Origin: Carcharhinus longimanus | Lineage: Eukaryota | Assembly: GCA_030264375.1 (NCBI GenBank) | Contig: JASCQW010000146.1 | Location: 30,495,152-30,559,151, forward strand | DNA: 64,000 bases | Direction of reading: 5' to 3' | Part shown: positions 6,001 to 9,000 of the stretch, in pieces | Position numbering within the stretch: the stretch's first letter is position 1 | How the letters are laid out: each line of letters starts with the position of its first letter | Position numbers: made by a program

Positions 6001-9000
6001 AGTATTTTGTGACTGTGTGCTATAACATAAATTGGGTGATAGTGAATTTGCAACTCCTGTTGTATCTATTCTGATTTGGCTTCAATTGAAATGAAGATCA
6101 GAAGGCATCTAAAATAGACTGCCAATTCACTACTACCCTTTTAATACTATCACACAAACCAAGATCTATCCCATGATGCAGGTTTACCAAATTCTTTTTG
6201 TTGTGATTAACAAAAGAAATGTCACTATCTGTTATGTACAATCAATCACAATTATTTGCAACTGATTAATGGTCCTGTTGGAACAGATCCCTCTTTACCT
6301 TAATTGTGACAGTTATAATTTTCTTTCTCTTTAGCATTACACAATGACTCATGTCAATATATCAGACCAGACATCAGTGACTGCCCGGCAAGTCAAGGAA
6401 AGCTCAAAAGGCAAACTGCGAGATCTGTGCCGACCCCATGGCTTCTCCATCTCAGGAAACAGGCCCTACTTTCAGAGAGTTCGCTGTCAAAAGTTTGGCC
6501 TCATCCCTAAAGCAATGATTCCGGTTAAAAAACCTGCTGCCAAAAAGGTTGTTGCTCTTAGTACAACTGCCAATGAGAGCGCTTGTTCTATCCTTGGATG
6601 CCCAAACCGTCATGGCAAGGACAATCATGTACGGTGGTTCGCTGTTATTCGAGAATCAGAAGCACACACAGCATCTTTGATGAGAGCTATACGGGTCACT
6701 AATCCTGGGTGGACACCAACATTCCATTCTAAAATATGTGGCCAGCATTTCTTTTCGGGACAGATCTCGTTTGTCCCAGGGTCTCCTGACTATGTTCCCC
6801 TTTTAAACATGAGTCCCACTTTTAGAATCATTACCAAGGACAGGAGTTCAGAAATTGAATGCAGAGGCAACCTTGATTCAGTTTCAATCGACAGCAAAGA
6901 CCCATCCATTTGTCACTCAGTAAGTGAAGACAAAATTGTGAATCCACCGAATACTGAGGTACAAAACTTCAAGAGCCTTCATCTGCATCCCGCTCTGAAA
7001 ACAAGACACAAGGTACTGTATGCTTCCATTGCCAGTTAGTACTGCACAGTAATCCACACAAAATCAGAATTGTGGCAGTGCTGCGGGAGGGGAATATAGT
7101 GGTGGAAAACAGTGGGGGGGCGCGAGCGGGAGGTGTGGANNNNNNNNNNNNNNNNNNNNNNNNNNNNNNNNNNNNNNNNNNNNNNNNNNNNNNNNNNNNN
7201 NNNNNNNNNNNNNNNNNNNNNNNNNNNNNNNNNNNNNNNGGGGCTGGGCGGCGGGAGGGGAATCGAGTGGTGGAAACCCGGGGGGGGGCGGGAGCGGGAG
7301 GTGTGGATGGGGGTGGTGTGGTTACTAGGGCCTCAAAGTAGGAAAGGTGGGAGGAGAGTGACTTAACTAGGTGGAACTAGAAATTTGCTTTTCAAGTGGC
7401 ACGTTCAGATATAGATTAATTTGTGGTGGGTCAGGCCTCATGCCATCCAGTGGCAGGTTCCTACTTGTAATATCTTTATGAATGAATACTCGTCGTATTA
7501 AAACATTTTGCAACCACATCCTATCTTCATGACAAAGTCAGCAGCATATAAGAATCTTGTGACATCTGGTTCAGGTTCGTTTAAAGGTTGCTCACAATAG
7601 CTGACTTGGTGTGGTTGCTTCTGAGGTCAGCAGTTTCCCTTGTGGCACAAGGGAGCAAAGCATGAGAATGGCAGCTTGCTTGGAGTCAGTAACGAAGAGG
7701 CAGTCATTGTGGCTAGCGATGGGCATGGGGTGTGGAATGGGGAATGAAAGATGGGAGGACTGGAAGAGGAATCCAAGGGTGGGGTCGGGGGTATGGAGGA
7801 GTGAAAATGTAAAGAGCCTGGCATGCCGTGAGTGTGGGAACAGTCAATCAAGGTAAGAAAATGAGGGGTCTAAAAAATGTCAGTACTATCCCCATGTAGG
7901 TTCATCTCAGGGTATTGGCTTGCAGAGTCCTTGCAGAGCTTTGAATTCACCTACAACATTTCAGTTATCTCTACTGAGAGTGATCTTTGACCTTGTCCTC
8001 TACAATGCATGGAGGAACAGCTTAGTCTGCACAATCAGCCAAGTCCGACTGATTGGTAAGTGCAACATTAAAGTTTATTTATTAGTCACACATTAACACT
8101 GCAATGAAGTTACTGTGAAAATTGTCTAGTCACCACACTTGGCGCCTGTTTGGATACACTGAGAGAGAACTTAGCACGGCTAATGCACCTAATCAGTATG
8201 TCTTTTGCACTGTGGGAGGAATCCAGAGCACTCAGAGGAAACCCATGCAGACAGGGGAACAACATGCAGACTCCGCAGGATCAGCCACCCAAGCTGGAAT
8301 TGAATCCGGGTCCCTGGCGTGGTGAGGCAGCAATGCAATCGAAAAGAATGAATGTTCAATAAAGAATGAACGTAAAAACACAACATTGTTTCTTCCAAAA
8401 TAAAGAAATATTCCTAACTTCCCTGTAACCGTAGAATCCCCACAGTGCAGAAAGAGGCCTTTCAGCACATTGAGTCTGCACCGACTCTCCAAAAATGCAT
8501 CATTCCTCCCTCCACCTCCCATTCCCCATAATCTTGTGCATTTACCATGACATTCCCCTAACCCTCAATTCTTGGGACACTAAGGGGCAATTTAGCATGG
8601 CTAACCGACCTAACACCTTTGGACTGTGGGAGGAAACAGGAGCACCTGGAGGAAACCCACACAGATTGGGAGAATGTGCAGACTCCACACAGACAGTGAC
8701 CCAAAGCCAAAATTGATCCCTGGTGTGGTCAGGCAGCAGTGCTAACCACTGTGCCATGCCATACACCGGGACATTTAGCTCTCTGAATAAGATAGTCTCA
8801 ACAAATAGCAATGCTGCACACATGAATAATGTGAAAGCAATGTCATGTCAAACATCTACAAATGAAATTTAAATGTAAAAAATACCTTTGTGCTCTCAGT
8901 AAGTCTTAAGTTAGCGATAGTTTTGTCCATGATGCAGAACCTTCCTCATTGTGCAGGAGCCTCTTTTATAGCCTGCCCATATCTGCTGCATTGTCAACTT

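What the first reader, a model, noticed from the sequence alone, without database searches (positions are those of the whole stretch)
6335..7012. Intact, spliceable, divergent THAP-domain exon: candidate domesticated transposon gene
Seen: 226 open codons between a strong acceptor and a donor, in a region where recognisable TE ORFs are broken. The four zinc ligands (CSILGC, CGQH) are kept, but the usual THAP Pro (FP) and helix Trp are replaced (WFAVIRE, ASLMRAI). From recall, the long HF...P..PDYVP ending is typical of THAP domains linked to PIF/Harbinger-like transposases rather than the AVPT ending of THAP1-type genes. I saw no TIRs or DDE domain nearby. A GTG|gtaagt donor at 5922 could supply a 5'UTR exon. 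Inference: a lineage-restricted domesticated DNA-binding protein.
Basis: partly seen in the sequence, partly recalled or inferred. Interest (0 to 1): 0.72.

Follow-up and report, generated by a model that had tools for sequence, protein, structure and literature searches.

The report
Shark ZMYM4 upstream THAP-like exon
The open stretch is a real, conserved coding exon: the second of two duplicated zinc-finger (THAP-like) modules that cartilaginous fishes carry upstream of the ZMYM4 gene and that gene models of other sharks splice onto ZMYM4, so it is already in predicted gene sets, although its domain has gone unrecognised.

Summary
Window 6335-7012 (+) is 226 open codons between an AG acceptor and a GT donor. 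It encodes a C2CH zinc module homologous to THAP domains (profile-profile probability 99.0%), and the canonical THAP Pro and Trp are replaced.

It is not a new stand-alone gene. It is the orthologue (79-92% identity) of an exon in RefSeq models of eight cartilaginous fishes. There it is the second ("B") of two tandem-duplicated modules, each a SAP-like motif plus a THAP. In six species' models A and B are spliced, in phase, onto ZMYM4.

The window also holds the probable end of the ordinary ZMYM4 first coding exon (46180-46203) and the next micro-exon (57529-57589), on the same strand and in the right order.

A and B separated before chimaeras and sharks split (tree, 100/100). All 21 modules keep the four zinc ligands. 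No relative with this architecture was found outside Chondrichthyes.

I found no flanking TIRs, no adjacent transposase and no specific transposon donor.

Most likely it is a cassette exon that gives long ZMYM4 isoforms a second DNA-targeting head. Splicing in this species, DNA binding and dN/dS remain untested. Interest is moderate: an unreported, ancient domain accretion on a transposon-derived gene.

The parts
6335..7012 (+). Exon B: a phase-0/phase-0 coding exon of 226 codons (SAP-like motif, basic linker, THAP-like zinc module, disordered tail)
   Evidence: ZMYM4-like models P0155, P0156, P0157 and P0158 align to exactly 6335-7012 at 79-90% identity. Cetorhinus P0154 matches 212/232.
6333..6334 (+). 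Acceptor AG behind a 20-nt pyrimidine-rich tract. The TAG at 6332-6334 also closes the frame upstream.
6344..6346 (+). In-frame ATG (Met4), the relic of the initiator Met of the duplicated exon. HY(T/P)M also precedes module A's start in two extended models.
6395..6499 (+). SAP-like helix-loop-helix motif (residues 21-55); tentative
   Evidence: Pfam SAP gives only 11.8 bits, E 0.2, in the window. Single A modules score 18-20 bits and two-module proteins 31-34 bits. AF2 predicts helices 24-35 and 44-53 at pLDDT 65-72.
6581..6814 (+). THAP-like C2CH zinc module (residues 83-160). Zinc-ligand codons: C84 6584-6586, C89 6599-6601, C135 6737-6739, H138 6746-6748.
   Evidence: Pfam THAP 19.6/20.7 bits, below the cut-off of 23.9. 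hhalign 99.0%, E 4.9e-18. PDB THAP1 E 0.0033 / 0.0006. AF2 pLDDT 92-97, and the top five Foldseek PDB hits are all THAP domains.
7013..7014 (+). Donor GT (AAG|gtactg). It is used in six species' ZMYM4 models and read through in the Cetorhinus model.
7037..7039 (+). Stop codon (TAG) reached if the donor is not used; this adds 8 codons
46180..46203 (+). Probable last 8 codons of the ordinary ZMYM4 first coding exon, followed by a gtaagg donor in phase 0. The rest of that exon would lie in the N run just upstream, which I left as it is.
   Evidence: tblastn with the first 22 residues of 7 short-isoform models, best E 0.009. Sequence. GC 0.64 and CpG o/e 0.49 just downstream, against 0.42 and 0.25 for the window.
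57529..57589 (+). ZMYM4 micro-exon (61 nt, starts in phase 0). In the models it is the exon to which A, B or the ordinary first exon is spliced.
   Evidence: All 7 of 7 ZMYM4 models hit it directly after their A or B module, E 1.6e-08 to 1e-03. Splice sites.

Best explanation
SHOWN. Window 6335-7012 is exon B of a two-exon unit (A, then B) that lies upstream of, and on the same strand as, the ZMYM4 gene of cartilaginous fishes. A and B are ancient tandem duplicates. Each encodes a SAP-like helix-loop-helix, a linker (basic, KKPAAKK, in B), a THAP-type C2CH zinc module and a disordered tail. Both exons begin and end in phase 0.

SHOWN IN OTHER SPECIES' GENE MODELS, INFERRED HERE. Transcripts that start at A splice A to B to the 61-nt micro-exon (57529-57589). 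They skip the ordinary first coding exon (which ends at 46203) and give long ZMYM4 isoforms with two extra N-terminal heads. B behaves as a cassette: it is included, skipped, or the transcript ends 8 codons past its weak donor.

INFERRED FUNCTION. The THAP-fold zinc modules, helped by the SAP-like motifs, give the ZMYM4 scaffold a direct DNA-targeting head. In mammals that scaffold is SUMOylated and associates with LSD1/CoREST, and the domains Pfam finds in the shark models (MYM/TRASH fingers, QRICH1, DUF3504) include no recognised sequence-specific DNA-binding domain. All 21 modules lack the Pro and Trp whose mutation abolishes DNA binding in THAP1, and they carry family-specific replacements (Trp at the usual Phe column, no Arg after the helix). 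The core is therefore probably repacked, and DNA binding is not assured.
For: Orthology and boundaries.

Same-strand, collinear ZMYM4 exons in the window.

Isoform lengths and junctions: Scyliorhinus torazame X4 is 2123-226 = 1897 aa with A (plus a 34-residue insert) joined straight to the micro-exon; S. canicula X4 has A|B|micro-exon; short isoforms use the ordinary first exon.

Tree: the A|B split has 100/100 support, with the chimaera's A among the A modules and its B among the B modules.

Domain-focused conservation between the window and Callorhinchus B: SAP 66% and THAP 64%, against linker 41%, tail 26% and N-terminus 30%.

Zinc ligands C, C, C, H, and also F139, W126, P128, P151 and P155, are kept in 21/21 modules.

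THAP homology: hhalign 99.0%, 143 THAP proteins at E<=1e-3, THAP1 in PDB.

Structure: the AF2 core has pLDDT 92-97 with a strand-helix-strand order, and the top five Foldseek PDB hits are THAP2, THAP1 (twice), CtBP-THAP and P-element THAP.

ZMYM4 partners: PMC7242444, passages.
Against: - No transcript data for this species, so inclusion of B and its junction to 57529 are inferred from other species' computational (NCBI) models, all from one pipeline.
- Four species annotate the unit as a separate gene. The Cetorhinus model reads through the 7012 donor.
- The models I saw for Mustelus (whose micro-exon is identical to the window's at all 20 whole codons, 21 of 23 aligned positions), Pristis and Hemitrygon contain A only.
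- The donor is weak.
- Pfam THAP is below its cut-off for this exon (19.6 and 20.7 against 23.9 bits). No Foldseek match reaches E<=0.001 (best 0.028), and the AF2 alignment itself contained THAPs, so the fold is not independent evidence.
- The Pro and Trp that are required for DNA binding in THAP1 are absent (PMC3479173).
- The window copy has 6 private substitutions, 5 of them in the THAP segment. This could mean relaxed constraint.
- The SAP assignment is weak.
Confidence: 0.65

Rival explanations
1. A and B form an independent two-exon gene encoding a small protein with two SAP-like/THAP modules. It merely sits upstream of ZMYM4. The long 'ZMYM4-like' isoforms are read-through or conjoined-gene artefacts or minor products. 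B is the terminal coding exon, ending at the stop at 7037-7039.
For: Separate 'uncharacterized' models exist in Cetorhinus (462 aa, A+B, read-through of the donor), Callorhinchus, Narcine and Pristiophorus. The probable end of the ordinary ZMYM4 first coding exon, with a GC- and CpG-richer stretch, lies between B and the micro-exon. The B donor is weak.
Against: Nine species' models join the unit to ZMYM4. The exon ends of A, B and the ordinary first exon are all phase 0 and fit the phase-0 micro-exon. No AATAAA or ATTAAA lies in the 100 nt between the stop and the next N run. Both readings may be true as alternative isoforms.
Confidence: 0.25
2. In the window's lineage B is a redundant duplicate that is no longer used (always skipped) and is drifting. 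The open frame is a leftover.
For: The Mustelus, Pristis and Hemitrygon models I saw have A only. B has diverged more than A between chimaera and shark (50% against 72% identity to Cetorhinus; tip lengths 0.79 against 0.30). 5 of the window's 6 private substitutions fall in the THAP segment, three of them beside the first zinc knuckle.
Against: The frame is intact over 226 codons, and all four zinc ligands are kept. The window's branch (0.052) is no longer than the Scyliorhinus stem plus tip (0.046+0.013). Identity to Scyliorhinus and Cetorhinus B is 90-92%. Among sharks B is nearly as conserved as A (92/93, 85/89, 85/91).
Confidence: 0.08
3. A fragment or young copy of a THAP-bearing DNA transposon (P, ISL2EU/Harbinger-like), or a chance open frame.
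For: The window is full of transposon debris, including a DDE_Tnp_4 remnant and Myb-like pieces at 24.9-28.5 kb. A frame of this length arose in 2 of 200 shuffles.
Against: There is one copy in the window and no flanking inverted repeats. In every model that joins it to ZMYM4 the unit comes directly before the micro-exon, in sharks and rays. The 21 modules form one clade (SH-aLRT 99), apart from transposase-linked THAPs. The protein searches returned a single such unit per species.
Confidence: 0.01

Closest known systems
Orthologous exons in RefSeq models: 'zinc finger MYM-type protein 4(-like)' long isoforms of Scyliorhinus canicula (XP_038657095.1), S. torazame, Chiloscyllium punctatum, C. 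plagiosum, Heterodontus francisci and Heptranchias perlo; and 'uncharacterized protein' LOC144695903 (Cetorhinus maximus) and LOC103187085 (Callorhinchus milii)
   Same: The same exon with the same boundaries and phase: 79-92% identity in sharks and about 53% in the chimaera. It sits in the same place, after module A and before the ZMYM4 micro-exon.
   Different: Those are predictions in other species. None is named as a THAP protein, and Pfam gives the full-length models no THAP hit at E<=1e-3. The window copy has private changes next to the first zinc knuckle.
THAP domain (Pfam PF05485; THAP1, THAP2, CtBP-THAP, P-element transposase THAP)
   Same: The C2CH ligands and spacing, the Phe after His, the W-x-P before the third Cys, the C-terminal Pro, the predicted strand-helix-strand core, and profile-profile homology.
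   Different: It lacks the Pro and Trp counted among the four invariant residues (PMC3479173, introduction). It has Trp where 122 of 143 relatives have Phe, and no Arg where 131 of 143 have it. It ends ...SPDYVPLL instead of AVPTIF. It scores below Pfam's cut-off on its own.
THAP-bearing transposases of the PHIS superfamily (ISL2EU type: THAP + HTH + DDE; PMC4482050, one passage read)
   Same: The same broad THAP subtype with the S..P..PDY(V/I)P ending. 14 of the 143 other hits have HTH_Tnp_4 and/or DDE_Tnp_4.
   Different: No HTH or DDE is attached here, and there are no TIRs. In the tree these THAPs are scattered (11 changes of label), and none is among the 15 rows nearest the shark clade. 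None carries a Pfam SAP match.
ZMYM family as transposon-derived and transposon-accreting genes (ZMYM2/3/4 DUF3504 from Crypton; ZMYM1/5/6 with hAT-derived C-termini; Kojima and Jurka 2011, PMC3212892, passages read)
   Same: It would be another case of a ZMYM gene gaining a domain of the kind mobile elements carry. The downstream gene in the window is ZMYM4.
   Different: The gain is N-terminal, THAP-type, duplicated, and seen only in Chondrichthyes. The passages I read do not mention it.
SAP domain (PF02037; e.g. Siz1/PIAS)
   Same: A motif of the L-R-(D/E)-L-C ... G ... S-G ... F-Q-R-V kind, and two predicted helices.
   Different: Only half of the Pfam model is matched (positions 8-25 of 37). 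The window copy scores 11.8 bits and the PDB match has E 1.5. It is a resemblance, not an established membership.

Membership tests
THAP domain | C2CH zinc signature C-X2-4-C-X35-50-C-X2-H | tested here: met
   C84-X4-C89-X45-C135-X2-H138. All four are kept in 21/21 shark modules.
THAP domain | Invariant Pro of loop 2 (THAP1 P26) | tested here: not met
   No Pro in VRWFAVIRESEAH. The column is I105 (hhalign) or A103 (phmmer against THAP1). It is Ile in 20/21 modules, against Pro in 109/143 other THAP hits.
THAP domain | Invariant Trp of helix 1 (THAP1 W36) | tested here: not met
   L115. Trp in 0/21 modules against 136/143 other THAP hits.
THAP domain | Invariant Phe after the zinc His (THAP1 F58) | tested here: met
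   F139; 21/21 modules and 142/143 others.
THAP domain | C-terminal Pro / AVPTIF box (THAP1 P78) | tested here: met
   P155 in DYVPLL; Pro in 21/21 modules and 135/143 others. The box itself differs from AVPTIF.
THAP domain | Pfam PF05485 gathering score (23.9 bits) | tested here: not met
   19.6 bits (E 0.0017) for the exon and 20.7 bits for its second part. The Cetorhinus A+B protein scores 39.4 and the Callorhinchus one 33.4.
THAP domain | Homology to bona fide THAP domains by profile comparison | tested here: met
   hhalign of the family alignment A1 against 28 Pfam-positive THAPs (A3): probability 99.0%, E 4.9e-18, 85 columns. The 28 were drawn from the query's own hit list.
THAP domain | beta-alpha-beta fold with a long loop-helix-loop insert | tested here: met
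   AF2: residues 81-160 at pLDDT 83-97, strands 101-103 and 133-135, helix 109-122. The top five Foldseek PDB hits are all THAP domains, with probabilities 0.99, 0.99, 0.98, 0.82 and 0.21, but E 0.028-1.7 (none <=0.001) and TM to target 0.42-0.60. The model used an alignment containing THAPs.
THAP domain | [quoted passage not shown] | not testable with these tools
   This needs protein and DNA-binding assays. The missing Pro and Trp are residues whose mutation abolishes binding in THAP1 (PMC3479173, introduction).
SAP domain | Pfam PF02037 gathering score (23.9 bits) and helix-extended loop-helix | tested here: inconclusive
   Window 11.8 bits, E 0.2. Single A modules 18.4 and 19.8 bits. Short two-module proteins 31.6-33.2 bits. 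Full-length A+B models 23.5 bits (S. canicula, just under the cut-off) and 33.6 bits (Heterodontus). PDB Siz1 SAP E 1.5. Two helices predicted at pLDDT 65-72.
ZMYM4 gene (exon of) | Collinear ZMYM4 exons on the same strand downstream | tested here: met
   The micro-exon 57529-57589 is hit by 7/7 models directly after their A or B module. The probable end of the ordinary first coding exon lies at 46180-46203 with a phase-0 donor.
ZMYM4 gene (exon of) | MYM-type zinc fingers and DUF3504 in the same polypeptide | not testable with these tools
   Those exons lie beyond the window. In the orthologous long models they are present (zf-FCS x7, TRASH_ZMYM4, QRICH1, DUF3504).
ZMYM4 gene (exon of) | Spliced transcripts joining B to ZMYM4 in this species | not testable with these tools
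   No transcript data are on hand. The support is gene models of six other species.
Active or young DNA transposon | Terminal inverted repeats and an adjacent transposase ORF | tested here: not met
   The only inverted repeats of 14 nt or more in 5300-8300 have one or both arms inside the exon. The nearest DDE remnant is 21 kb away on the other strand.
Active or young DNA transposon | Many dispersed copies | tested here: inconclusive
   One copy in the window and one unit per species in the protein searches. Genome-wide copy number could not be checked because no eukaryotic genome collection is on hand.
Domesticated transposon-derived gene | Orthologues in the same place across species, under purifying selection, with an identifiable mobile-element donor | tested here: inconclusive
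   Same place: supported through gene models. Long-term constraint: inferred from an intact frame and domain-focused conservation across the chimaera-shark split. dN/dS was not computed because no orthologous coding DNA is on hand. Donor: none identified.

The most novel reading that the evidence does not exclude
Before chimaeras and sharks diverged, a THAP-type zinc finger with a SAP-like motif was captured as an alternative 5' coding exon of ZMYM4, a gene itself derived from a Crypton transposon. The exon was then duplicated in tandem. Long isoforms of a chromatin co-repressor scaffold therefore carry two DNA-reading heads of their own, and the heads use a repacked THAP core that does without the 'invariant' Pro and Trp. 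I found no paper describing this architecture, and no protein with it outside Chondrichthyes.
Probability: 0.4. Interest if true: 0.65.

Novelty: new variant of a known kind. Interest (0 to 1): 0.45.

Why it matters
ZMYM proteins are studied as scaffolds that other factors bring to chromatin. A lineage in which ZMYM4 has carried its own THAP heads since before the chimaera-shark split would be a natural experiment in how such a scaffold can be targeted. It would also be one more case of a ZMYM gene taking up a domain of the kind mobile elements carry, after Crypton in ZMYM2/3/4 and hAT in ZMYM1/5/6.

For THAP biology, 21 conserved modules without the Pro and Trp that are required in THAP1 test how fixed the 'invariant' residues really are.

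On the practical side, the modules are missed by standard domain annotation of the full-length models. Pipelines also split or merge the unit inconsistently between species, which matters for annotation of shark genomes.

Tried and rejected
- The word-indexed search at similar length found nothing (52 candidates, none scored). The relatives appeared only with the exhaustive search and with a profile at 'near' and 'longer' lengths.
- Three strong-looking hits were dropped as spurious: P0005 (25 stretches), P0007 (18 stretches) and P0016. By Pfam they are repeat proteins (DUF285/ChiW Ig-like, Big_4/SLH, Ig domains), and they match only the low-complexity tail.
- Module A, the 34-residue extra exon of Scyliorhinus, and the C-terminal parts of the Narcine and Pristiophorus models have no match in the window.
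- A pattern search for the start of the ordinary first exon found nothing. Only its last 8 codons are visible.
- The bacterial promoter/terminator scan was irrelevant to a vertebrate locus. Alignment A4 was too long and went unused. TRF and Rfam gave nothing.
- The ESM Atlas gave only THAP clusters at 0.82-0.83, which is a lead and not evidence.
- The THAP-domain tree has 92 columns for 163 rows and is mostly unresolved (92 of 158 inner branches are open). It only shows that the shark modules are one clade and that no transposase-linked THAP is close to them.
- I searched exon by exon.
- N runs were left as they are.
- I do not take the window for human. Its closest matches are shark sequences.
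Full report
WHAT IS THERE

On the + strand the frame is open from 6335 to a TAG at 7037-7039 (234 codons). 6335-7012 is 226 codons. A pyrimidine-rich tract and an AG (6333-6334) precede the exon. AAG|gtactg follows it, a usable but weak donor. This is the longest N-free frame of the window. A frame this long arose in 2 of 200 block shuffles, so length alone is only suggestive.

The translation carries C84-X4-C89-X45-C135-X2-H138. 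Pfam gives THAP at 19.6 bits (E 0.0017), below the curated cut-off of 23.9. The second part of the exon alone scores 20.7 bits.

RELATIVES

A word-indexed search at similar length found nothing. The exhaustive phmmer search of 1.84 billion representatives gave 149 proteins at E<=1e-3.

- The three best hits (E 2.3e-113, 3.8e-50, 3.3e-45) are 'uncharacterized' proteins of Callorhinchus milii, Pristiophorus japonicus and Narcine bancroftii.
- Three others (P0005, P0007, P0016) are repeat proteins that match only the tail. I dropped them.
- The remaining 143 all contain a THAP domain by a profile built from 28 of them.
- Pfam finds THAP at E<=1e-3 in 131 of the 132 scanned (P0028 is the exception), and in the 11 remaining hits scanned (P0006, P0008-P0015, P0017, P0018).

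A profile search then found a Cetorhinus maximus model (LOC144695903, 462 aa) that is 212/232 identical to the window. At longer lengths it found seven 'zinc finger MYM-type protein 4(-like)' proteins of 1772-2122 aa. Four of them cover the exon fully at 79-90% identity.

THE EXON IN ITS GENE

Every one of these proteins begins with a module I call A. In eight species a second, related module B follows, and the window's exon is B.

Four ZMYM4-like models (Scyliorhinus canicula, Chiloscyllium punctatum, C. plagiosum, Heptranchias perlo) align to exactly 6335-7012. All seven ZMYM4 models then continue in a 61-nt micro-exon at 57529-57589, with acceptor ...ttccag| and donor |gtaagt.

Short ZMYM4 isoforms of about 1655 aa start instead with a 21-22-residue first coding exon. 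Its last eight codons, followed by gtaagg in phase 0, are visible at 46180-46203 (best E 0.009, so probable rather than certain). They sit directly after an N run, which I left as it is. The flank is GC-richer and less CpG-depleted than the window (0.64 and 0.49 against 0.42 and 0.25).

The order on the + strand is therefore: [A, outside the window] - B (6335) - ordinary first exon (...46203) - micro-exon (57529). A, B and the ordinary first exon all end in phase 0, and the micro-exon starts in phase 0.

Isoform lengths fit a cassette:
- S. torazame X4 is exactly 226 residues shorter than X1, and joins A (plus a 34-residue insert) directly to the micro-exon.
- S. canicula X4 is A|B|micro-exon.
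- The Mustelus, Pristis and Hemitrygon models I saw have A only.

Module A is not in the window, so it lies more than 6.3 kb upstream.

I searched exon by exon and did not join exons for any search or fold.

AGE AND CONSTRAINT

A maximum-likelihood tree of 12 A and 9 B modules separates A from B with 100/100 support. The partial Heptranchias A was left out. The chimaera's A falls among the A modules and its B among the B modules. If the root lies on that branch, the duplication predates the chimaera-shark split. The window's B is sister to Scyliorhinus B (96/91).

Between the window and Callorhinchus B, the SAP-like and THAP segments keep 66% and 64% identity, against 41% (linker), 26% (tail) and 30% (N-terminus).

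Among sharks B is almost as conserved as A: 92/93, 85/89 and 85/91% to Cetorhinus. Against the chimaera the figures are 50/72.

These are the marks of long-term purifying selection, but dN/dS could not be computed because no orthologous coding DNA is on hand.

An oddity: the window has 6 private substitutions at sites where five other sharks agree, and 5 of them lie in the THAP segment, three next to the first zinc knuckle. This is post hoc and the numbers are small.

The HY(T/P)M that opens B also precedes A's initiator Met in two extended models. The ATG at 6344 is therefore a relic of the duplicated start.

IS IT A THAP?

The defining features are taken from the introduction of PMC3479173, of which I read passages.

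- Met: the CCCH ligands, F58 and P78.
- Not met: P26 and W36. The Trp column is L115. The Pro column is I105 or A103, depending on the alignment.

Across alignments of 143 other THAP hits and 21 shark modules:

| Column | Other THAPs (of 143) | Shark modules (of 21) |
|---|---|---|
| Pro | 109 | 0 (Ile in 20) |
| Trp | 136 | 0 |
| Arg after the helix | 131 | 0 |
| Trp at the usual Phe column | 1 | 21 |

Homology itself is firm. hhalign gives 99.0%, E 4.9e-18 against 28 Pfam-positive THAPs. THAP1 is the best PDB sequence match (E 0.0033; 0.0006 with a profile).

The AlphaFold2 model has pLDDT 92-97 over residues 81-150, with strand-helix-strand order, and a disordered tail and N-terminus (mean pLDDT 67.6, pTM 0.45). 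The five best Foldseek PDB matches are all THAP domains, but with E 0.028-1.7 and none at or below 0.001. The model's alignment contained THAPs, so this is not independent evidence.

The N-terminal motif resembles SAP only weakly:
- 11.8 bits in the window.
- 18-20 bits in single A modules.
- 31.6-33.2 bits in the short two-module proteins.
- 23.5 and 33.6 bits in two full-length A+B models.
- Siz1 SAP at E 1.5 in the PDB.

TRANSPOSON ORIGIN?

- No inverted repeats flank the exon.
- It occurs once in the window.
- The only DDE remnant lies 21 kb away on the other strand, among Harbinger-type debris.
- 14 of the 143 other THAP hits carry HTH_Tnp_4 and/or DDE_Tnp_4. This is the architecture described for ISL2EU transposases (PMC4482050, one passage).
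- In a poorly resolved THAP tree the shark modules are one clade (SH-aLRT 99). The transposase-linked THAPs are scattered, and none is among the 15 nearest rows.

A mobile-element donor is thus neither shown nor excluded.

HOW IT PROBABLY WORKS

Shown: a conserved, in-phase exon encoding a zinc module of the THAP fold family, placed upstream of ZMYM4.

Inferred from other species' models: an upstream promoter at A yields A-(B)-micro-exon transcripts that skip the ordinary first exon and give ZMYM4 one or two extra heads.

Inferred function: DNA targeting of a scaffold that in mammals is SUMOylated and found with LSD1/CoREST (PMC7242444, passages). Because the Pro and Trp needed for DNA binding in THAP1 are gone from all modules, binding must be tested, not assumed.

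The main rival is that A+B is a separate small gene and the fusions are read-through products. Four species are annotated that way, and the Cetorhinus model reads through the 7012 donor to the stop eight codons on. Both may hold as alternative isoforms.

KNOWN OR NEW

The exon is already in predicted protein sets of eight other species, so the locus is not new to databases. The domain is unrecognised there: the full-length models get no Pfam THAP hit at E<=1e-3.

None of the papers these searches returned appears to describe a THAP or SAP module on ZMYM4. I judged this from the listings, plus passages of PMC3212892 and PMC4527844.
- 'ZMYM4'+'THAP': 17 papers, 15 listed.
- 'ZMYM4'+'shark': 2 papers.
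- 'THAP domain'+'Callorhinchus': 2 papers.
- 'SAP domain'+'THAP domain'+'transposase': 0 papers.

Kojima and Jurka (PMC3212892, passages) derive the ZMYM2/3/4 DUF3504 from Crypton and note hAT-derived ends in ZMYM1/5/6, without an N-terminal THAP. Supplements were not consulted.

No protein with this architecture was found outside Chondrichthyes. That library holds one representative per 50% cluster, so this is not proof of absence.

LEFT UNCHECKED

Transcripts, dN/dS, genome-wide copy number, synteny in the species with separate models, and presence in other vertebrates.

The window is not human; its nearest matches are shark sequences.

Noticed in passing
window 20857-21177 (-) and 21264-21566 (-): Two open pieces with Filamin/ABP280 repeat matches (Pfam E 4.1e-15 and 3e-06) on the opposite strand, inside the 50.5-kb stretch between exon B and the ZMYM4 micro-exon. 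Whether they are a gene fragment, a pseudogene or real exons is undecided.
   Followed up: no
window 24913-25254 (+), 27204-27254 (+), 28207-28482 (-): PIF/Harbinger-type debris: a DDE_Tnp_4 piece (E 2.5e-07), a weak Myb_DNA-bind_4-like piece (E 6.8e-04) and a second 82%-identical copy of part of it (repeat D19). It is unrelated to the THAP exon.
   Followed up: partly
window 40380-40979 (-): An open frame of 200 codons with at least five C2H2 zinc fingers (zf-H2C2_2 E 3.4e-35), next to an RT_RNaseH_2 piece at 41597-41857 (+).
   Followed up: no
window 46178-46500: GC 0.64 and CpG observed/expected 0.49, against 0.42 and 0.25 for the whole window. This lies directly after an N run and contains the probable end of the ordinary ZMYM4 first coding exon. 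It looks like the edge of a promoter CpG island.
   Followed up: partly
window 7074-7139 and 7242-7307: A G-rich 66-nt direct repeat (86% identical) on either side of an N run, 35 nt past the read-through stop of exon B. TRF reports no array.
   Followed up: partly
window, e.g. 27729-27795, 30119-30174, 44899-44965, 47792-47858, 48721-48787: Many copies, in both orientations, of a repeat that looks like a tRNA-derived SINE to me (my reading; not tested with a tRNA or repeat tool). There are also LINE reverse-transcriptase pieces at 4443-4814, 15626-16300 (-) and 37714-37968, with 75-87% identical repeats between 4.4-5.3 kb and 37.5-39 kb.
   Followed up: no
window 6581-6604, 6695-6697, 6800-6802 (residues 83, 85, 87, 121, 156): 5 of the window's 6 private substitutions, relative to five other sharks' B exons, fall in the THAP segment. 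Three are beside the first zinc knuckle (SCCIPGC in the other sharks, ACSILGC here). Relaxed constraint or changed specificity; undecided.
   Followed up: partly
related proteins P0155, P0191, P0179, P0159 (not in the window): Full-length shark and ray ZMYM4 models that carry one or two of these modules get no Pfam THAP hit at E<=1e-3. NCBI annotates the A/B unit as part of ZMYM4 in nine species and as a separate 'uncharacterized' gene in four.
   Followed up: yes
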